Assembly (NCBI GenBank): GCA_951406725.2
Contig: OX597830.1
Location: 35,216,001-35,280,000, forward strand
Reading direction: 5' to 3'
Length of the DNA: 64,000 bases
Source: Octopus vulgaris
Taxonomy: Eukaryota
Under the pieces are notes generated by a model that had not been told where the DNA came from, made no database searches, and was given only the letters and a program-made list of their open reading frames with translations. Numbering within the stretch: position 1 is the first letter of the stretch; each line of letters starts with the position of its first letter. Below, piece after piece: positions 100 to 53,170 of this stretch. Position numbers and translations under genes: made by a program.

Positions 100-1350
100 A
101 AACGGTTCCCATTCTAAGTGTTGTGGCCTTCAAAGTTCTTCTTTGTAGTTAGTTTTCCACTTGTAGGCAGTCCGACCTCGTTATTTGTAGGTAGATACAC
201 AACTTTATCCATACAAGCTTTGGATGTGCCATTTTGGAAACTGTTTGCCGATACCTTTTTTTTTTTGTTGCTTTATTTTATTCTGTCTGAGCTCATCATT
301 TTACTTCCGCATCATTATTTATACGTTGTAGTTTATTCCTGGATGGCATGCGGTATATTTGCACCAAGTATTTCTACGAAGCATCCGAGCTTTAGCGCTA
401 TATCAGATAGTTTCTTTTGTAATATTTTTTTCTTTTACTTTCTCCATCATTTCTACGTATTACTTCTTAACAGTTTCACCTCTTCCTAAATGTCTATGCA
501 GATGGTTGATTCGGGTCTAAATCCTGAATGTATCTAACTTAATGTCATCAGATTTATATAATATCCGTCTTCTTCCAGTAACTTTCGCACATATCACTAA
601 ATCTATTTTCTCATTAATGTCATACGAGAATTTATGAAAAACTATAAGTAGATTTACGTAGCTCTATATTATTCTGAGTAGATATATTAAAGCTTTCCAT
701 ATAGAGAAGGCAGTTGGTATCGTCTTGAGCATCTATATCTATTTGCTGTTTCATTAAAATAGATTTTACTCGAAGAATGAGGTTTAGGTTAAAGATTATT
801 GGATATTATATAACTTGCTGGATGATTTCTCTACTTATTGGTATACGCCTGGATTTAATTATCTTCTCTTCGTCTTGCAAGGATGTTTGTTTTTCATTTT
901 TACATAACATTATTGAAAATTTTAGTTAGTATAGGGATTGGCTACTTACTGTTCGAGTGTTTCTAATATCCAAGAGATTGGTTGGTATACTAGCAAATTC
1001 TCTTCAGTAAGCAATCCAAATCATATTAAGTCTTCGCTCTTTGCTTGTTTCTCATTAAACCTCGATTTACGAGTTGCTACACTTTCAGGTATCCGTACTG
1101 CTCCTTTGTAATAATACAATCAGTATCCAACTCTTTGTAAAGAATGTGTGAAAGGATTTTGTAACTTATTCGAAAGTAAGTTACAACAATTTCAGTTTGG
1201 GAATCACAGAAATTTTATTTAATTCTAGAAAATTAATATTGTTTACATTTCAGCAGCAATGAAGGTTTTGATTCTGGTCTGCTTATTTGTCCGCAGAATA
1301 ACACCAACACACAGCTCCTGGGTATCGGTTTCTCAACCATTTTTTTTTTA
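100..1350 (-). mobile_element. Old, heavily degraded R4/Dong-like RLE non-LTR retrotransposon (RT region)
   Basis: Manual minus-strand translation with stops and frameshifts gives RRLNMIWIAY*REFASIP (cf. RNLSxAWIDYKKAFDS), IFNL...NCLLYMESF (cf. LFxL...NHLxYMDDL) and HPKAxxDxxYLP-like text, in the same order as in ORF 18738-20909. Confidence 0.6.
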
Positions 1351-16199: not shown

Positions 16200-18372
16200 T
16201 TATTTTCTCTTTATCACAGGTTTTGTTTGAGCTCCTGGAGTCTTGCATGCGTAGCTGGCTTACTACCTGCAGCCTACGGTACCATGCTATTCGTTCTTTT
16301 TATCTATCTAATACTATCCTGATCATTCTAGCTGTGCCAAGGAGGAAAACCATTTTGTAACAGTTCTACTGGGCAATCTATACCAATTTCTTTTATATTC
16401 TCCCTTATGCCTTCTGATTCTATTCCCAAGGACCCAACAACAATTGGCATTATCTTCACCTTGTTCATTTTCCTCAGCCGGGCTATTTCGTAACTAATTG
16501 TATCTAGCTAATTATTATTGTTATCATTATAGAGGTCGCACATTATACGATATTGTGAAGTTGTTGATTGAAGATATTGTGTCTACCGGGGGTTTGTACT
16601 GTTTGTCGAGTCACAACAAGGATCTCAAGCAGACAGTACTCTACGCCATATGCGTTTAGTTTCAAGTAATGCCGACTTTTGCAATACACCTGGATTGTAG
16701 GGTATTTCTGAAATTTTCAGATTTTATTTTTAGACTGGGTGGTATTGAACCCTATGCTCTGATGACAAAAGTGTTGACCTTTATGTTTTTTTTTCTCGTA
16801 GCTGCTACATCTTATCGATCTCAATTCTCAGGTTTCCATATTTATCAACCTCTTCTTTTTCTTTCATGATTATATGTTGATCTCCTAGTACAATCACGTC
16901 AATTATTGAGCACTCCTGTTTCTCCCTACTAAAGGTTACTATACCCGGTCTTCGGTGTTCTAATAGCTTGTCTGTCTGGAAGTCAGGTTCCTAGATGATT
17001 TTGCCTCCCCCTTTTCGATCATTTTCTTTTTCCGGTATATGTTGGTACCAAATACCCGTAACCTCATATCCATACTTACAGCATATTAGCCAGTGGAGGT
17101 TTTGGGCTACCTTGTCATGTCTACGCCTGTACTCTTTCTGCGCAAGATGTTCACAAACACTAACAATGTGAGTCACGCTTTTGACTCCCTCCCACACATT
17201 CTGCAGAAGTCCGTTGCAATTGTGTGGTATATATTCTTTTTCATTTCACTGAGTTGGTATTCAATGCCTGGTCCTGGGTAGCGATGATTAAGCTTACAGT
17301 ATTATTTTTAAAGTCAATCTTGTTAAGCCACCTCTATGATGCTTCCTGGTCTTTTAATATGTTGGTTTCACGGTGGAACTGGTCATGTAATTCCATGCGG
17401 AATAGAGTTTCTTCTCTCTCTTTGGCTGTTCTTGATCGGAATTCATGAGCACTCTCAAGTCCATTTTTGTTAAATCCTTCTGCATTACCAACATACTGTA
17501 ACAGGTCTTGTTTGCTGTTTACCAAATATTCTGCCCTGTTTTCTTTTTAACTGCGGTTGTACTCCCGTAATCTAATCAGCCTACGTCCACCTTTACGCCT
17601 CTTCATGTAGAACCTGTGTACATTCTTCTTAGGCACAATACATTATCTTTGTCTTTCGGGTAATGCGATAGAGTTGGTTAATCTCTGCTTGTGTCCATCT
17701 CAGAATAGGTGCATTATAGCAGAATACAGTAACTGCCCATGTGTTAATGCAGTCACAAGATTCCTTGAGTCGAGTTTTGATTCCAAGAGAAGTTTAAGGC
17801 GTTTGAAATATGCAGTGATGACTGGATTTTGGAAACAATCCACATGTATGGAATAGCTGAGAATATGTGTGCACTGATTAAGAACAGCATGCCTAGTTGG
17901 AAAGCTTGTCTTTCTTGTAACAACCAGCACTTAGCCGAGGTAACAAGCAAAAGAGATATCTTCTAAGGAGGCTTTTGTTCACCTCTGTTATTTGTTATAG
18001 CCTTGATCCCACTTTCTGTAGTCCTACACGAAGTCAACGCATACTATGAGCTGAGAATGTATGAACCTCGTTTCAACTACCTTCTCTTCATGGATGCTTT
18101 AAAATTGCTCGCAAAAACAAAGCCTGAGATGGACAGGCAGGTTGAGACTGTGCAAATGTGCAGCAAGGATATAGAGATGGAATTCGGTATCTCGAAGTTT
18201 GCAGTGTTTACTTTGAAGCGGGGGAAAATGAGTAAAGAGAAAATTATAGGGACTTAGAATTGCCAAGCGGAGTGAGAATGAAAGACCCCAATTATAACGG
18301 GTACAAGTACCTTGAGATCCTAGAGCTGGACAATATCTTGAATAAAAAAAATGAAAGACAAGGTCATCACTG

Positions 18373-18375
<3 letters not shown>
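16200..18375 (-). mobile_element. Degraded R4/Dong-like RLE retrotransposon with an inverted 5' segment (17820-18375 reads on +)
   Basis: Minus strand: VITAYFKRLKLLLESKL, HIVSVCEHLAQKEYRRRHDKVA, LLGTARMIRIVL. Plus strand: WILETIHMYGI, SPLLFVIALIPLS, LLFMDALKL, YKYLEILE. 5' end abuts (TTA)n. Confidence 0.85.
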
Positions 18376-18441
<66 letters not shown>

Positions 18442-18514
18442 CATTATTATTATCATCATCATCATCATCACCATCATTATTATTATTATTATCATTATTA
18501 TTATTATTATTATT
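18374..18514. repeat. (TTA)n/(TCA)n tract shared by two R4/Dong-like insertions
   Basis: Directly visible between the two elements. Confidence 0.95.
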
Positions 18515-21013
18515 CTATGTTTGACTTTTGCTTTATATTTGTACAAGTTGGCTCCAAGTCTCACCCAGAGACCTCAAGAGACAACAGGGTTGGAAGTTCA
18601 TGTTGTTGTTATGCCTAGTGTGCCATATATTTGGGGGTGGGGATGTTGTACTAATGAATGTCTAAAAAAAATTTTTAAAAAAAAAAGGGGTTTTTTTTTT
18701 TTTTTACCGAAAATTATGTTTGTTTTAAACCTTGAGATTACATAGAGAGTATTTTGCGTAGGATATGAGCAGTTCCCATGAGCACTATCTTTTGAACTTC
18801 TGCCATTTTTGGGTTTCCTGGTATCTGAGTTAGGTAGCTATCAGCCCCTTTTGCTATCATTCCCAGGGCACCTATGACAACAGGTATTGTTTTAGTCTTC
18901 AGCTTCCACATTTTGCTGATTTCTATTTCAAGATCTTTATATTTGCTCAGTTTTTGGTAGGTCTTGACAGATACGTTTATATCGATTGGGACAGTCATAT
19001 CAATGAGGAGGCATGTTCTTTGTTTGAAGTTTTTCAATATGATGTCTGGCCTATTTGCATCTATCTTCCTGTCAGTTTGAATGGTGAAGTTCCAGAGGAG
19101 TGAGATGTGGTCATTTTCAAGCACTGGGGGTGGTTTGTGTTCCCACCAGTTTTTTTCATGGGGCAAATCCAGGTTTTTACAGATTACCCAGTGAATATAT
19201 TGTGCAGCTCTATCGTGCCTGTTGAGATACTCTGTAGGCGCTAGAAGACTGCACTTGGAGACCACATGGTCAATGGTTTCATTTTGTTGCTTGCATACAC
19301 GACACGTTGGACTGCTTCTGATCTTTAATATGTTGACCTGGTAGTTTCTTGTTGGTAGGCATTGATCTTGAGCTGCTATGATAAACCCCTCTGTTTCAGA
19401 TTTTAAGCCAGAGGCCATTAGCCATTGATGGGTCAGGGCTTTGTCGATATCTGCATTATTCGCTCTCTTTGGGTATTTGCCATAGAGAGGTTTTTCTTGC
19501 CATTTATTATTCAGAATATCTAAGGCCGCAGTTTTGGCACGGGTTTTCATGCGCCTAGCTTTTTCTGTGCTTGTTTCTTGTATATCTATCTCTAATTCCG
19601 AAATTGGTTGTATTCGGAATTCACTTAGATATTCCTTTGCCTGTTTTGTGACTGAGTATGATGCTTTCTTGTTTTCATGTTTTGAGACAAGTTTTAGCAT
19701 CCAGTCCTCAGAGTTTTTCAGGTAGGTGTCTAGGCCAATTGTAGCAATCTTCATTGTTATTGCCAGTTGCAAAAGACCACGGCCTCCCTCTTTTCTTGGC
19801 AGATAGAGTCGTTCTGTATCTGCCTTAGGGTGGTGCATTCTATGCATTGTCAACAGTTTCCTTATTTTTCTGTCGAGCTGACATATTTCAGTAATTGAGC
19901 AGTTAACAATATTGAAACTGTAAGTCACGACTGGTATAGCTAATGCATTGATTGCTTCGATCCTGTTTCTTGCATTCAGCTCTGTCTTGAGTATTGCTCT
20001 CACTCTTCGATAGCATTCTCTCCTGATCCTTTCCTTCATCTCTGAATGCCTTATTCCGTTCCCTTCAATTATCCCTAGGTACTTGTAGCTCTCCGCTGGG
20101 TCTAGTTCTTTTATGACATTCTGTTGGTCAAGGTTAACGTTAGATGTTTCTGTCATTTTTCCTTTGATAAAGGTAGCCTTTGCACATTTATCGAGGCCGA
20201 ATTGCATTCTGATGTCGTCACTGAATTGTTTGACTATCGCTAGTAAGCCCTTGAGTTGTTGATCATTTTTTGCAAAAAGCTTTAAATCATCCATGTAAAC
20301 GAGATGATTTATATTTTTATCAAACATTTTATACCCGTACTGCGCATCATTGAGCAGCTTTGAGAGAGGTATTAAGGATAAACAAAAGAGGAGTGGTGAC
20401 AGTGAGTCACCCTGGAAAATGCCACACGAAATTTTTACATCACCAGCATTTAGGGATTCACTGTCACTGTTCAGAGTTAGTGTGGTTCTCCATGATCTCA
20501 TACTTACAGTCAAGAAGTTTCGCAGAGTTGGTGCTATCTTATACATTTCAAGGCATTTCCTAATCCAGCTATGTGGTAGGCTATCAAAAGCCTTTTTATA
20601 GTCTATCCAGGCTATTGATAAGTTTTTGTGTCGTTTGTGACAATCTTCTAAGATCATCTTATTGATGAGTAGTTGGTCTTTACAGCCGTAGGATCCACGT
20701 TTACATCCTTTCTGTTCATTAGGGAATATGCTGCTGTCTGTTAAAAAACTATAGGTATATTCCGTCAGGACAGATGTTAGTGTTTTGTACATAGTTGTTA
20801 AGCAGGTTATGGGTCTATAGTTTTTTGGTTCATTTGTTTCTTCACTTTTTGGAAGCAGGAATGTTAACCCATTAACTAGCCAAGGAGGCATCCTACTAGG
20901 GTGTTGCAAAACATCATTGTACAGTTCTGTTAGAAGTTCATGGCTCTCTGGGAAGGCATTCAGCCAGAAGTTAGGAATTTTATCCTTTCCTGGAGACTTC
21001 CATTTGCTTGACC
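18515..21013 (-). mobile_element. Young 5'-truncated R4/Dong-like RLE non-LTR retrotransposon, with 3' UTR at 18515-18737
   Basis: Uninterrupted ORF plus 3' UTR, bounded on both sides by (TTA)n. Confidence 0.95.
18738..21013 (-). CDS. RT + CCHC zinc knuckle + restriction-like endonuclease polyprotein (N-terminally truncated; the frame stays open to the TAA tract)
   Basis: KSPGKDKIPNFW, NYRPITCL, EQKG, WIDYKKAFDS, GIFQGDSLSP, YMDDLK, CRVC...ETIDHVVSKC, RHD, RPDI...IDMTVP...KLSKYKDL. Confidence 0.93.
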
Positions 21014-21065
<52 letters not shown>

Positions 21066-21205
21066 GGCGGCAAGCTGGCAGAATCGTTAGCATGCGGGCA
21101 AAATCCTTAGCAGTATTTACCTCATCTTTATGTTCTGAATTCAAATTTCGCTGAGGTCTACTTTGCCTTTCGTCCATTCAGGGTCGATGAAATAAATACC
21201 AGTTA
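21066..21205 (+). mobile_element. SINE family B copy abutting the (TTA)n tract
   Basis: GGCGGCAAGCTGGCAGAA head plus Nin-like core. Confidence 0.8.
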
Positions 21206-21625
21206 TGTAACTGACTAGTCCCGTTGATACTGATACATCGATTAGAAAGCATTATTTCTCTTAGCGATATTTCACAACTGTATCCGGCCTATTCCACTTA
21301 ATTTCTTCATCTGTGTATCTTGACATATGTTTGCTACTCATTTTTTGCAGTGACCTTTTCTGGTGTGTGTCTACATCATTGTTGCTGTTGTTGTTGTTGC
21401 TGCTGCCGCTGCTGTTGTCGTTGTTATCATCATCATCATCATCATACTACTGTGAAATTCAACTGTGTATAGCAATAGTAATATATATTTATTAACTGAT
21501 ACAATTACAATGAGACCCACACACATACACGATACATATATACACACATATAAAGAAGCCTATGTTTTTTTGATGAAATTTAAATTTTGAAAATTCATTT
21601 GTACTCCTCTTGGTTGACATACATA

Positions 21626-29849: not shown

Positions 29850-30720
29850 CGGGTACTTCCTGGGAAACTCCAAGGCCGGGTACTTCCTGTCCGATCGGGT
29901 AGGACATCCTGGAAAAGCCCGTAGAGGCGAGGTAGCATTTTCTGGAAAAGTCCGAGGATGAGTATTTCCGGGAAATGTCCCAGGAGGAGTACGTCCTGGA
30001 AAAGTCCGAAGAGTGGGGGGAATTCCGCATAGGGACACTCCTGGAAAACCTCGACGATGGGTACTTCCTGGGAAAGTCCGAGAAGGGGGTAGAACTTCCT
30101 GGAAAAGTCTGAGGATGGGTACTCCTGGGAGAGTCCGAGGATGGGAGGTATTATTTCCTAGAAATGTCCAGAGGGTGACTTCCGGGAAAAGACCGAGGAG
30201 GCGGATTCCTGGAAAGACTGAGGAGGGTAGTTCATGGAAAATTTCGAGGTTCGGGAGGTATGACTTCCTGGAATAGTCCGAGGAGTGGAGGTAGGACTTC
30301 CTGGAAAAGTTCTACGATGGAGGGGGTAGGACTTCCTGGAAAAGTCCGATTAGGGGGACTTCCAAAGAAAGTCCGTAGAGAGGGAGGGGAGGAAGGACTT
30401 CTTGGAAATGATCATGGAGGGCGACTTCCATGAAAATTCCAAGGCGGGTGGAGCGAGGAGCAGAAGAACTTCTTTGAAAATCTGAGGAGAGGGACTGCCT
30501 GAAAAATTCCAAAGAGTGGGGGGTTGAGTGGGGAAGGGCACCAAGGAGTTTCTGGAAATGTCCCAGTGATCGCCCTGGAAACTTCACCTCCCCCTCAACT
30601 CCTCAAAGTTGAGAGGAGGGGACAAAGGAACTTTCCCGGAAATCTTTCCTCCCATTCCTACCATTCTTCCCCCTCAACACACCACATTGGAATTTTCCAG
30701 GAAGTCACCATCCCCCTTCT
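29850..30720. repeat. GC-rich degenerate array of about 25 palindromic units GGACTTCCTGGAAAAGTCC with variable purine-rich spacers
   Basis: Directly visible; the last units (about 30580-30720) are inverted and C-rich. Confidence 0.9.
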
Positions 30721-31372: not shown

Positions 31373-31862
31373 GTATCGCCCGGCGTTGCTCGGGTTTGTA
31401 AGGGAAATAACTATATAAGCATTTTTAGAGAGTTACTTCCCATATATAATAGCAAAAACATGCATAAAAATGGAATAAAAATGATGGTAATTTTTTTTTA
31501 AATGGTAGACTCATCGTAGACATTTTTAGAGAGTTACTTCCCTTATATAATAGCAAACAAATGCATTAAAAATGGAAGAAAAATGATGGTAATTTTTTTT
31601 TTAAATCGTAGACTCATCGTAGACATTTTTAGAGAGTTACTTCCCTTATATAATAGCAAAAAAATGCATTAAAAATGGAAAAAAATTTTATTTAAAATCG
31701 TAGACTCATCGTAGATGCGCGCTAATACCCAGAAGGGCTCGATATGAATCATGACTATAAGATACCCGCTTTTGGTTAAACTGCACCGCAAAATATGGGA
31801 GTAGTTAGGAATCTAAATCGTAGGAAACAGACACCACACAACTTCTCTTTTATATATATAGA
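31370..31862 (-). mobile_element. Non-autonomous Helitron with about 3 internal tandem copies of a ~98-bp unit
   Basis: Minus strand starts A|TCTATATATATAAAAG and ends with the hairpin CCCGAGCAACGCCGGG then CGATACTG (terminal CTAG lost); unit ATTTTTAGAGAGTTACTTCCC...GTAGACTCATCGTAGA repeated. Confidence 0.75.
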
Positions 31863-38689: not shown

Positions 38690-38936
38690 AAATCCAGCTT
38701 TAGTCTTCAGGGTGGAGAATTAGGCACCTCAAATCTTTTTAGTACTACTATATTTACACTTCTATATTTAAGAGATGAAGAATTATGCACATTATTTACA
38801 TTATTTACAGTTGACCGATATTTGTCCTCATTTTGTTTGTTGTTAACATAACGTTTCGGCTGATACACCCTCCAGCCTTCATCAAGTGTCTTGCGAAATT
38901 TCGAACGTGGGTTCTCCTTCCTAAGGTATTTTTCGA
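38690..38936 (-). mobile_element. Penelope-like pLTR fragment with a hammerhead at 38846-38890
   Basis: Minus strand GACAC TTGATGA A GGCTG-N10-CAGCC GAAAC GTT ATGTT. Confidence 0.6.
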
Positions 38937-38959
38937 TATTATTATTATTATTATTATTA

Positions 38960-41041
38960 TCTTCTTCTTTCAAATTTGCTTACATTTCTTGCCGAGTGTC
39001 TTCCCGACTCCTAGGGCAAATAAACTCATAGTATATATTGGTAGGCCATTAAGCTAAACTAAATTAAATTAAATTAAAAGTTCGTTCATTTTTTTTTTTT
39101 AAGTTAAAAAAACTATTACAACATGGGCAGTAATAGTTCTCACATCGACAATGCTCTTCTCAATACGTGTGATGTAACAGTTATGACAATTTTTTGCACT
39201 TCTTGCAGGGACGGTAAGCCAGGGATCATTCTCATATAATTTTCGGTTCCCTTCTCGATCATTCCTAGTGCTCCTACGATCACTGGTATTGTAACCGCCT
39301 TGAGATGCCACATTTTCTCAATTTCAATGAGCAGGTCTTTATATTTTCTGAGCTTGTCAAACTCTTTCGCCGAGATATTATGATCACAGGGGATGCTCAT
39401 GTCGATCAATAAGCAAACTTTATTGTTTTTGTCTTTCACAACAATATCCGGTTTATTGGCTTTGATGGTTCGTTCTGTATGTACTGGGAAGTCCCACAGA
39501 ATGGATACATTTTCTCCTTCAGTTACAGCTTCAGGGTGGTGATTATACCACTTGTCGGCAGTTTTGATATTGTAATGCCGACTTATTAGCCAGTGTAGAT
39601 ATTGGCCAACTCTGTCATGTCTTAATTTATACTCCACTGGTGCTAAGACTTTACATCCAGAGATTAGGTGGTCCACTGTTTCAATCATGTCATTGCAGAA
39701 TCGGCATTTTGGGTCTGCTCCATTTTTCATTACATTGGCCTGTTAGTTCCGGGTTAATAGGCTTTGATCTTGAGCAGCCAGGATGAAACCTTCGCTTTCT
39801 GCTTTTAGCCCTGAGATCCGTAGCCACTGATGGGTTTGCTTCAGGTCAACATCAACATATTTGCCGTGCAGAGGTTTCTCCTCCCACCTACCAGCCAATT
39901 GCTCGTGCGCTTTTTTCGTTGCCATTTTTTCACCTTCTTTGCAACAATAGTTGCCGTACTTCCCTTGGGTTGTTCAGTTTGGGTATCCTGCAAGAGATCA
40001 ATAGCAAATTTTTTGCTTTCCGTTATGATAGAATGAAGCTTCTTTCGTCTCTCGTGATTTTCCACGAGCTTTAGCATCCAGTCATTCGTTATTTCAAGAT
40101 ATTTGGCCAGTCCAATTGTGGTTGTTTTGTAAGCTAGTTCAAATTGGATCAGACCTCGACCTCCTTGGGCTCTGGGAAGGTAAAGGCGATCTACGTCTGC
40201 CTTTGGGCGGTGCATCCTATTACAACTCAGCAGCTTGCGTATTTTCTTGTCTATATTCTTTACTTCACTCATATTCCAGTTCAACCCATTGTAGTTATAA
40301 GTAACAACTGGAACTGCTAAGGAATTTATAGCTAACACCTTGTTACGTGCATTTAGTTCAGATTTCAGGACTGCTCGAACTCTCCTATAACATTCCTTCC
40401 TGATCTTCTCTTTCATGCTTGCATGCTGAATACCAGAGCCTTCATTTATCCCTAAATATTTGTATGTTTTGTTCTTGCTCAAGCTCTCTTATGACTGTGT
40501 CAACATCTAACACGACTGAATTTGTGGTCTTCACTTTCCCTTTCTGGAAAGTGGCCTTGGCACACTTCTCAAGCCCAAACTCCATCCCGATGTCATCGGT
40601 GAATGCTTTCACAGTGCGCAATAGGCCTTCAAGTTCATTATTGTCTTTACCATAGAGTTTTAAGTCATCCATATAAAATAGAAGGCTTATTTTTTATTGG
40701 CAATTTTATACCCATACCCTGTTCTGTTTAATTCACTTGTAAGGGGTATTAGGGATATGCAGAATATTAAAGGTGACAGTAAGTCACCTTGAAAAATTCC
40801 ACAGTTGATGTTTATATATTCTGAGGCAAGTACTCCATTAGAGTGGTATAATTGGAGATTCGTATTCCACAACGACATATTGTGCTTCAGGAAGCTTGAA
40901 ACCACAGGGGAAATTTTGAAGATGTCCAGCGATCTCAAGATCCATGGATGCGGTATACTGTCGAAGGCCTTTTTATAGTCAATCCATGCGGAGCTGAGAT
41001 TTCTGCGCTTGTTGTGACAGTTCTCAAGGATCATACGATTA

Positions 41042-41042
<1 letters not shown>
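38960..41042 (-). mobile_element. Second-family R4/Dong-like RLE retrotransposon, 5'-truncated and frameshifted
   Basis: AWIDYKKAFDSIPH, GIFQGDLLSP, MDDLKLY, CRFC...ETVDHLISGC, RHD, KPDI...IDMSIP...KYKDL spread over several frames; (TTA)n on both sides. Confidence 0.93.
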
Positions 41043-41113
<71 letters not shown>

Positions 41114-41118
41114 TGAGG

Positions 41119-41247
41119 TCACTGCTTGGAATCGAACTCGGAATCTTGGGGTTAGCAGCCCGCGTCCTTAATCCCTACGCTATATGCGTAGTGGTTAAGC
41201 GCGCGGGCTACTAACCCCTAGATTCCGATTTCGATTCCAAGCAGTGA
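41119..41247. repeat. Head-to-head inverted pair of tRNA-like sequences (62-bp arms, 5-nt loop)
   Basis: Left arm 41119-41180 is the reverse complement of right arm 41186-41247 with a few mismatches; each arm has an A-box-like, an anticodon-like and a B-box-like part. Confidence 0.85.
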
Positions 41248-41249
41248 AT

Positions 41250-42200
41250 ATATGAATAATTTAGATGGTATATGCGAATAATTTAGATGATATCGGGTTC
41301 GTATACGTTTTACGTAAATTAGAACTCTTTCACCCTGGACCCAGAGTCTTCACTAACTTCAGAATTTCAAAACACTAATTGATAAAATAAGCAACGTACA
41401 GTTCACCTTGGAACACAGTAAATTTGTACAAAACTTGCTGGTAATATAATAATCAAATTTGAGAGACGTGACAATTGAGACAATAATTGTTATTTACTTC
41501 TAACCACTAAAGACTTCTAAAAACAAATTTAATCTAGCGCGGTTAGTCTAAAGCAAAGAATATAATCACTCGCTACGCTTTTTGAATACAGCTTGAGAGA
41601 CGTGATCCAACAATGTCAATTCATACCAGAATTAAAATCTACCAAAGCAGTAGTTATGCAAGAATTACGAAGGACAGAAAGCAGCTCAAATATGCCAAAT
41701 ACTTTATATTACAACACAAGTCAAACAGGAGATCCAAGAAATACAGAAGTACGGAAATTCATGAAATGCTTTTTAGTAATGAAGTAAAATGAGACGCATA
41801 CATACATATACACATAAAACGCACACACACAGGCATACTTATGACGAAGAAAAATGTAGCCGAATACCCTTTTAAGTACGTTATGTAAATTAAGCTAAGT
41901 TGATTAATCGATCAACTATTGAATCGATTAATCAAGCAAGACTCAATGTACAATGGATGCAATTTACTGAACTATAGGAAACACGTGCAGAGTAATATAT
42001 ATCGTTGAAGATCTTATGTTTTTACTATATATTTATATATATGATAAGAAGAAATAAAACGATTATTTTATGAAATTCATTAGCTTACATCTGTTTCGAC
42101 TATAAGATGCAGTGGACTCATAGTTGAGTGCCTTCATCTTTGAGGCTCTGATGAAACTGTGAAACAGCTGTTAGCAAATGAAGTCCATAAGGTAATCGTT
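41250..42200 (+). mobile_element. Degraded Penelope-like relic(s): RT remnant and pLTR with a hammerhead at 42145-42175
   Basis: LDDI, QFTLEHSK and FNLARL-like remnants; GCT CTGATGA AACTGT GAAA CAGCTG TT AGC. Confidence 0.45.
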
Positions 42201-52369: not shown

Positions 52370-53170
52370 GTTCTAAGACAGACTATTAACAGAGATATTA
52401 AGAACATAGTCATGCTAGTATGGAAAGCAAATTAAGTCTAAGAATGATCATAGTCTTTCACTATTGCGAAAGACTGTGATCAAACATAAACTATGACAGA
52501 AATAAAACGACAATGGAAAGGGAACAATTATTGTCTATAGTATGCAATGACCGAAACCAAACCATGAACAACGATAATCATTTAAAGTAAACTATGTAAA
52601 GTAAACAGAGAAAGGAAATGATTTAAGGTAGACTATTATCAAAACGAAAGTCTTATCAAAAGTAGAATACGTTCAAAGGTAGATTATGATTGAGCAGAAT
52701 ATGATCAAATGCCAAATATGATCAATGACAGACTACCATCAAAGTCAATTCAGACTAAGCTCAGTGGCTTAACAAAGATGAAAGGCAGAATATAATCGAA
52801 GGCTAACTTTTGATCAAGGCTATGATGAAATGCAGAATATAAACAAAGACAGACTATGATCTTAAGCATGCTATGATTAAAAGAGACTATGATGAAAGAG
52901 AAATTATAATTAAAAGCAGACTATGATGAAAGGGAGTCTCTAATCTAAAGGTGACTTTTGTCGAAGGCAGACTGTGGTCAAAAGGAAACTATGATCAAAG
53001 GGAGACTATGATTAAAGGATAACTATACACGAAGGCAGACTATTATCATAGGGAGATTATGATAAAATGAAAGCTATGATTAATGACAAATTACCATGAG
53101 ATCAGACTGTAATCAACGGCAAAGCATGATCAAAGTAGTCTGTGATCGAGTAGTCTATGATCAAAAGTAT
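52370..53170. repeat. Degenerate 17-bp minisatellite, consensus about GGCAGACTATGATCAAA
   Basis: Periodic GACTATGATCAAA variants, most regular at 52620-53165. Confidence 0.85.

What the first reader, a model, noticed from the sequence alone, without database searches (positions are those of the whole stretch)
18374..21064. Young (TAA)n-targeting RLE retrotransposon with intact RT-CCHC-RLE
Seen: about 2.3 kb of uninterrupted coding sequence with all RT, zinc-knuckle and PD..D-type endonuclease motifs. Both the truncated 5' end and the 3' UTR join directly to (TAA)n. Known: R4-clade Dong elements target TAA microsatellites. Inference: a recently active, microsatellite-specific family. Full-length copies may exist elsewhere and would be a candidate sequence-specific TPRT enzyme that may also lengthen TAA tracts.
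Basis: partly seen in the sequence, partly recalled or inferred. Interest (0 to 1): 0.7.

Follow-up and report, generated by a model that had tools for sequence, protein, structure and literature searches.

The report
Truncated copy of TAA-targeting Dong retrotransposon
This is a young, front-truncated copy of a very abundant jumping gene that sits inside a TAA repeat and likely belongs to the Dong family, already known to target such repeats, so it is an ordinary example rather than a new system.

Summary
Observation confirmed. A stop-free 757-codon frame (minus strand, 21011-18738) encodes RT, CCHC knuckle and restriction-like endonuclease, and both ends abut TAA tracts. The copy is 5'-truncated: in 4 of 4 runs other copies continue in frame past 21013. 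It lacks about 400-500 N-terminal residues and carries a private W371C, so 'intact' overstates it. The family is abundant and young. TAA targeting is supported by a second copy in the window with TAA at both ends and by 17 of 27 truncated relatives with same-strand TAA at the 5' junction, against 0 of 560 control bins. 5' flanks of this family outside the window were not seen. By eye, RT blocks match published Dong (90/110) better than R4 (56/110) or R2 (35/110); no tree with named references was possible. TAA-targeting Dong in molluscs and recently active Dong-R4 families in Octopus vulgaris are in print (PMC7998251, PMC13282606). This scan noted such elements on other DNA of this genome before (e1-9809270). 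One extra: the copy abuts an older relative with a twin-priming-like 5' inversion. New member of a known kind.

The parts
21014..21064 (-). (TAA)17 at the 5' junction, read as upstream half of the target tract (inferred)
   Evidence: other family copies carry coding sequence here instead
18738..21013 (-). 5'-truncated single ORF, 757 codons in frame 21011-18738, starting at the WKSPG motif upstream of the RT core
   Evidence: (full-length relatives 1100-1260 aa)
20070..20849 (-). Reverse transcriptase core (Pfam RVT_1, residues 55-314; YMDD at 20286-20297)
19251..19304 (-). CCHC zinc knuckle (C570, C573, H582, C587; invariant in 33 of 33 aligned proteins)
18939..19052 (-). Restriction-like endonuclease motifs (RPD654-656, D671, K687, K690, Y691)
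   Evidence: whole predicted model matches R2 TPRT structures, TM 0.68-0.78
18515..18737 (-). 223-nt 3' UTR with A/T runs and a predicted bulged hairpin at about 18553-18579
   Evidence: folding z-score 0.39, so not significant alone
18374..18514 (-). Compound (TAA/TGA)n tract at the 3' junction; also the 5' flank of the older copy
   Evidence: 3' loose ends are TTA repeats in 4 of 4 runs
21065..21205 (+). Flanking dispersed repeat, opposite strand, not part of the element (tRNA-derived SINE by recall and by-eye A/B boxes)
   Evidence: 13 other matches in the window at 72-82% identity
16520..18375 (.). Older, decayed Dong-like copy with an inverted 5' piece (minus 17822-16630; plus about 17823-18375)
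38960..41043 (-). Second, independent Dong-like copy (46-51% aa identity, with frameshifts and stops), 5'-truncated, (TAA)22 upstream and (TAA)7 downstream

Best explanation
It is a 5'-truncated copy of a very high-copy non-LTR retrotransposon with RT, CCHC and restriction-like endonuclease motifs, flanked by TAA on both sides, likely a Dong (R4-clade) element that likely inserted into an existing (TAA)n tract by target-primed reverse transcription. Shown: domain content, truncation point, TAA at both junctions, abundance and 3'-over-5' excess of family sequence. Inferred by analogy with R2/R4: a full-length master made the protein; its N-terminal Myb-like domain and endonuclease recognised and nicked the TTA strand of the microsatellite; the freed 3' end primed cDNA synthesis at the RNA's 3' end; synthesis stopped after about 2.5 kb; the cDNA joined the upstream TAA half (1-nt microhomology); a staggered second cut would duplicate a few TAA units invisibly. 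This copy cannot make the full protein and has since picked up a few mutations.
For: Motifs and fold (R2 TPRT structures are the top 7 fold matches). Other copies continue in frame past 21013 in 4 of 4 runs, so the upstream TAA is not element-encoded. 3' loose ends are TTA repeats in 4 of 4 runs; summed depth is about 1e5-2e6 in three runs and 2e4-4e5 in the fourth, against about 10-150 for most single listed contigs, and falls 3' to 5'. A second copy has TAA at both ends. Relatives from other organisms: 22 of 39 evaluable at >=37% identity have same-strand TAA upstream and 0 of 39 antisense; 17 of 27 truncated-looking loci, control 0 of 560 bins. 25 of 34 displayed variants segregating in the family are synonymous against about 27% expected, as for master lineages under selection. 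By-eye RT block identity: Dong 90/110, R4 56/110, R2Bm 35/110. In print: TAA is the Dong target in most insects, molluscs and cnidarians (PMC7998251, passages); R4 makes a 13-bp duplication (PMC6895275, passages).
Against: 5' junctions of other copies of this family were not among the displayed loose-end rows, so family-wide targeting rests on 2-3 window copies plus relatives at 35-60% identity. 10 of 27 truncated-looking relatives and 11 of 21 near-full-length ones showed no (TAA)>=4; in at least two (L015, L019) the upstream DNA looks like more element. One contig carries 825 letters beyond an element piece ending at 20275 (table 8, record 19), which may be a copy with a short or non-TAA 5' flank; its letters were not shown. 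No tree with named references. Petrosino et al. found no insertion polymorphism for a Dong element in O. bimaculoides (PMC9115989, passages).
Confidence: 0.9

Rival explanations
1. The family has only a TAA 3' tail and weak AT-rich preference; TAA at 5' junctions arises by chance in a microsatellite-rich genome or by survival of insertions in such tracts.
For: The window has 140 tandem-repeat rows; family-wide 5' flanks were not seen; one contig extends 825 letters past an internal point.
Against: Chance per junction is about 0.006, and about 4e-5 for two. Strict strand asymmetry in relatives: 22 sense, 0 antisense. No other microsatellite type lies at the window junctions.
Confidence: 0.04
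2. The upstream TAA was made during insertion (non-templated or slippage synthesis, or a template jump to another RNA's UAA tail) instead of being a pre-existing target.
For: The 5' tract is perfect while the 3' tract is partly decayed; no empty allele was available.
Against: Beyond the 5' tract lies an opposite-strand repeat, not a Dong 3' UTR. The decayed 3' tract is also the flank of an older element, so a tract pre-existed. The second copy splits a tRNA-like head from a hammerhead-like motif, a layout that unreviewed notes describe as contiguous around a TAA tract (e1-10100147; not confirmed by Rfam).
Confidence: 0.04
3. It belongs to another RLE clade (HERO, NeSL/Utopia, R2, CRE) that converged on TAA.
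For: Some HERO families target microsatellites (PMC4640811, passages); no reference tree was built.
Against: In the published alignment (PMC5678591 supplement 6, parts 1-2) only the Dong and R4 rows share the query's YRPITCL, GIFQGDSLSP and YMDDLKL blocks or near-copies of them (by eye). R2 proteins align at about 20%. 0 of 62 full-length relatives have an N-terminal zinc finger.
Confidence: 0.02

Closest known systems
Dong (Bombyx mori), DongAG (Anopheles gambiae), DongBg (snail Biomphalaria glabrata), Dong1/2 of Darwinula stevensoni (PMC3812793 and PMC7998251, passages)
   Same: Single ORF with RT-CCHC-RLE; TAA on both sides; RT blocks 90 of 110 identical to the B. mori row by eye; full-length relatives lack N-terminal zinc fingers.
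   Different: A different family; this copy is truncated. Rough depth ratios suggest thousands to tens of thousands of copies; I did not find a comparable figure for the insect families.
Dong-R4 families of Octopus (PMC13282606: 5 recently active families, 1129 near-full-length insertions, 4.73 Mb in O. vulgaris; PMC9115989; PMC8967140; passages of each)
   Same: Young, abundant Dong-R4 LINEs in what is probably the same kind of genome (octopod origin of the window is my inference, shared by earlier scan notes).
   Different: The passages I read give no target site. I could not compare sequences, so identity with one of those families is likely but untested; their repeat libraries and supplements were not read.
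R4 of Ascaris (AAA97394 row in PMC5678591 supplement)
   Same: Same clade; shares the main RT blocks (56 of 110 by eye).
   Different: Targets large-subunit rRNA genes and makes a 13-bp duplication (PMC6895275); less similar than Dong.
R2 (R2Bm, R2Tg; PDB 8gh6, 9nl3, 9dou)
   Same: Same overall RT-thumb-knuckle-RLE fold (TM 0.68-0.78); the model for the mechanism.
   Different: About 20% identity, 28S rDNA target, N-terminal zinc fingers plus Myb.

Membership tests
Dong / R4 clade | Single ORF with RT, CCHC knuckle and C-terminal restriction-like endonuclease | tested here: met
Dong / R4 clade | RT sequence closest to Dong among named RLE elements | tested here: met
   By-eye count over 7 motif blocks (110 positions, blocks chosen by me) against PMC5678591 supplement rows: Dong 90, R4 56, R2Bm 35
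Dong / R4 clade | Nested in the clade in an RT tree with named references | not testable with these tools
   No named reference sequence was available as a tool object. The tree has unnamed relatives only; the element lies among TAA-flanked rows.
Dong / R4 clade | (TAA)n at both junctions, including truncated 5' ends | tested here: met
   2 of 2 well-preserved window copies; 17 of 27 truncated relatives, control 0 of 560; family-wide 5' flanks not seen
Dong / R4 clade | N-terminal Myb/SANT-like domain without zinc fingers (PMC7998251) | tested here: inconclusive
   Region missing from this copy. In relatives 0 of 62 have a finger and 36 of 62 match a conserved tryptophan block, but Pfam found no Myb family in 33 members.
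Dong / R4 clade | HDV-like self-cleaving ribozyme at the 5' end (PMC3774820) | not testable with these tools
   5' end absent here; Rfam found none in 15 related loci, a weak test
R2 clade | 28S rDNA target and N-terminal zinc fingers | tested here: not met
   No rRNA or other Rfam family at gathering score in the window; 0 of 62 relatives with fingers
HERO, NeSL/Utopia, CRE | Clade-typical RT motif blocks | tested here: not met
   By eye, their rows differ from the query at the GIFQGDSLSP and YRPITCL blocks

The most novel reading that the evidence does not exclude
In this genome Dong is not a minor rDNA-spacer element but a currently active family with tens of thousands of copies that splits and extends TAA tracts by staggered cutting, making it a main shaper of the TAA microsatellite landscape (4 of 11 TAA loci in this window are Dong junctions). 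The neighbouring twin-primed copy would be direct genomic evidence of a 3'-overhang cut in an RLE element, and the published failure to find polymorphic Dong insertions in octopus would be an artefact of repeat-flanked junctions.
Probability: 0.25. Interest if true: 0.5.

Novelty: new member of a known kind. Interest (0 to 1): 0.22.

Why it matters
As found, it confirms that known Dong TAA targeting holds in a probable octopod genome where Dong-R4 is already reported as abundant and recently active. Its practical value is as a source: a young, high-copy family makes it easy to recover a full-length master and study a microsatellite-specific TPRT enzyme. My paper searches returned no in-vitro cleavage or TPRT study of a Dong protein, though the library lacks most subscription papers. 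All solved relatives found were R2 or LINE-1.

Tried and rejected
No whole genome was held, so copies could not be tabulated. Two read-laying runs did not display internal 5' truncation junctions (2099 and 79 loose-end rows hidden). No RNA holder listed. Rfam: nothing at gathering score in the window; no ribozyme in 15 relatives; no hammerhead or tRNA hit around the second copy; no support for a 5S-like head in L082 and only a T-arm-like scrap in L008. 3' UTR folding is no better than shuffles (z 0.39 and 0.68 for the two copies). The idea that the copy is a longer element interrupted by the SINE was rejected: the Dong-like scrap at 21204-21326 is from the endonuclease region, not the missing N-terminus. 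No inverted copy was found among the 117 fetched loci. The protein atlas gave only generic RT clusters. Earlier-findings look-ups by sequence, by place and by words gave nothing. A twin-priming paper search gave two papers, with no RLE case in the passages read from one. The 'bacterial' records holding close relatives are read as eukaryotic contamination of assemblies (inference), not as bacterial elements.

Full report
Observation. On the minus strand, 21011-18738 is a 757-codon frame ending in TAA with no internal stop. Pfam finds RVT_1 at residues 55-314 (E 6e-28) and a sub-threshold zf-RVT at 543-589. YMDD (239), a CCHC knuckle (570-587) and the endonuclease motifs RPD654, D671, K687 and K690-Y691 are present; these columns are invariant or nearly so in 33 aligned proteins. 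An AlphaFold model (mean pLDDT 88.6) has R2 TPRT structures as its top 7 matches (TM 0.68-0.78, 17-20% identity), then LINE-1 ORF2p. A perfect (TAA)17 (21014-21064) joins the coding sequence directly. After a 223-nt UTR comes a 141-bp tract of 37 AAT, 9 GAT and 1 GGT units.

It is a truncated copy. The closest relatives are 45-66% identical, and many are 1100-1260 aa long (1930 hits among 7990 candidates scored, 120 listed), so about 400-500 N-terminal residues are missing. In 4 of 4 sequencing runs laid on 20700-21020, contigs continue past 21012-21014 with element sequence that reads in frame as ..EDVRSALR.. into the window's SSKWKSPG, like the relatives (translation by hand). The upstream TAA is therefore not element-encoded. 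The junction shares one A between target and element. No Met precedes the element sequence in the open frame. Of the 40 variant rows shown out of 135, 6 are sites where the window copy differs from at least 90% of family depth in all four runs. Three of these change residues, including C371, which is W in the other 32 aligned proteins. 'Intact' thus applies to the frame, not to a working element.

The family is abundant and young. Twenty of 24 listed runs, from 9 studies and four coded organism labels, hold 70-93% of the element's words, including runs of only 22-77 million letters; the best holder may be the window's own source. Summed contig depth is about 1e5-2e6 in three runs and 2e4-4e5 in the fourth, against about 10-150 for most single listed contigs, and falls from the 3' to the 5' end as expected for 5'-truncated LINEs. 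The tool warns that this is no copy number; my rough ratios, from rounded values, are about 2e4 at the 3' end and 2e3-7e3 at the 5' end. In run X1, 11051 of 36688 laid contigs are at least 99% alike. In the complete variant table for 20700-21020 only one site sets the window copy apart from nearly all others. Of 34 displayed segregating variants 25 are synonymous, against about 27% expected, which suggests several master lineages under selection; the rows are the best-supported ones, not a random sample. Present-day activity was not tested. Petrosino et al. found no insertion polymorphism for a Dong element in O. bimaculoides (PMC9115989, passages).

Targeting. 3' loose ends are TTA repeats in 4 of 4 runs, which alone could be a tail. 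The 5' side is the test. A second, decayed copy at 41043-38960 (46-51% aa identity, so a different family) is truncated at another point and has (TAA)22 upstream and (TAA)7 downstream. A random site lies in a same-strand tract with probability about 0.006 here. Among 117 fetched loci from other organisms, 86 are at least 37% identical. Of these, 39 have at least 150 bp upstream: 22 show same-strand (TAA)>=4 and 0 the antisense. At the 3' end, 19 of 33 evaluable show TAA and 2 the antisense. Below 37% identity only 2 of 23 have 5' TAA. Restricting to truncated-looking loci (at least 35% identity, at least 75 bp upstream), 17 of 27 have TAA within 135 bp (16 of 26 after merging the duplicate L050/L076); 10 of 21 near-full-length loci have it 5-461 bp before the ORF; 0 of 560 control bins do. 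Against: the negatives above; an 825-letter contig extension at 20275 whose letters were not shown; and no view of this family's own 5' flanks outside the window, because no genome was held and those rows were hidden.

Clade. No named reference could be put into a tree. An IQ-TREE of 117 unnamed rows places the element with P0002 inside a large group where TAA-flanked rows are spread throughout (quick search, midpoint root). In the published RLE alignment of PMC5678591 (supplement 6, parts 1-2 of 23 read; rows cut), I counted by eye over seven motif blocks of my choice: 90 of 110 identities to B. mori Dong, 56 to Ascaris R4 and 35 to R2Bm; HERO, NeSL/Utopia and CRE rows lack the diagnostic blocks. 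None of 62 full-length relatives has an N-terminal zinc finger, matching the description of R4/Dong in PMC7998251 (passages). That paper also reports a divergent Myb/SANT domain there, and states that (TAA)n is the Dong target in most insects, molluscs and cnidarians.

Mechanism. Shown: anatomy, truncation, flanks, abundance. Inferred from R2/R4: recognition of (TAA)n by the Myb-like domain and endonuclease of a full-length master, a nick on the TTA strand, TPRT from the RNA's 3' end, premature stop, and joining to the upstream half. The compound, partly decayed 3' tract argues that the target pre-existed. A duplication cannot be read inside a repeat; R4 makes 13 bp (PMC6895275, passages). Tract lengthening is therefore plausible but untested. 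Counting by hand, 4 of 11 TAA/TTA loci of five or more units in the window are Dong junctions.

A neighbour of interest. The 3' tract is also the 5' flank of an older Dong-like copy. Its minus-strand part runs from about residue 334 (query numbering) to the C-terminus (17822-16630) and ends in a decayed TAA-like tail; its plus-strand part runs from about residue 140-148 to about 332 (17823-18375). Both parts share the 13-mer GTCATCACTGCAT at their meeting point in element coordinates. This is the geometry of twin priming (recalled from LINE-1; the primary paper was seen only as a citation in PMC6895275), which would need a 3' overhang at the upstream cut. It is one old copy; none of the 117 fetched loci shows an inversion, and later rearrangement is not excluded.

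Known context and verdict. TAA-targeting Dong elements are listed for silkworm, mosquito and a snail (PMC3812793, passages); Dong has a 5' ribozyme (PMC3774820, passages). Dong-R4 is expanded in coleoids (PMC8967140, passages), and O. vulgaris has 5 recently active families with 1129 near-full-length insertions (PMC13282606, passages; supplements not read, and they may hold this family). That the window is octopod is my inference from repeat content (recalled), echoed by unreviewed scan notes. Note e1-9809270 already describes TAA-inserting Dong elements and their 3' hairpin elsewhere in this genome; the hairpin folds here but not better than shuffles. Verdict: real, correctly read, ordinary; new member of a known kind; interest 0.22.

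Noticed in passing
window 16520-18375: Old Dong-like copy with an inverted 5' piece and a 13-bp overlap at the inversion point, the geometry of twin priming; I found no RLE case in the passages read. The young copy sits head-to-tail in its 5' TAA flank.
   Followed up: partly
window 38830-41250: The second Dong copy lies between a tRNA-like head (about 41110-41250, partly an inverted duplicate) and a hammerhead-like motif (about 38850-38890, by eye; no Rfam hit), as if inserted in the TAA tract of the Penelope terminal repeat described in earlier notes.
   Followed up: partly
L003:84-167, L008:10-90, L082:130-230: Some near-full-length relatives begin with Pol III-like heads right after the 5' tract. 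L003 has an Rfam tRNA hit (E 0.027); L008 is weak and L082 unsupported.
   Followed up: partly
window 421-1051 and 21204-21326: Two further very decayed Dong-like fragments on the minus strand; all five Dong-like remnants in the window have their main part on the minus strand.
   Followed up: no
window 1-64000: Strong strand bias of the repeat: 16 TTA-type against 2 TAA-type tracts on the plus strand.
   Followed up: no
window 18660-18716: Run of A, C and T homopolymers in the 3' UTR; reads seem cut there, so the local sequence may be error-prone. The second copy and L001 also have A-runs in the UTR.
   Followed up: no
L081-L105: Close Dong-like relatives with TAA flanks occur on contigs filed in bacterial genomes, likely eukaryotic contamination.
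   Followed up: no
window 29929-30350, 31420-31686, 52820-53162: Minisatellite-like arrays with periods of about 26-33, 103 and 17/68 bp.
   Followed up: no
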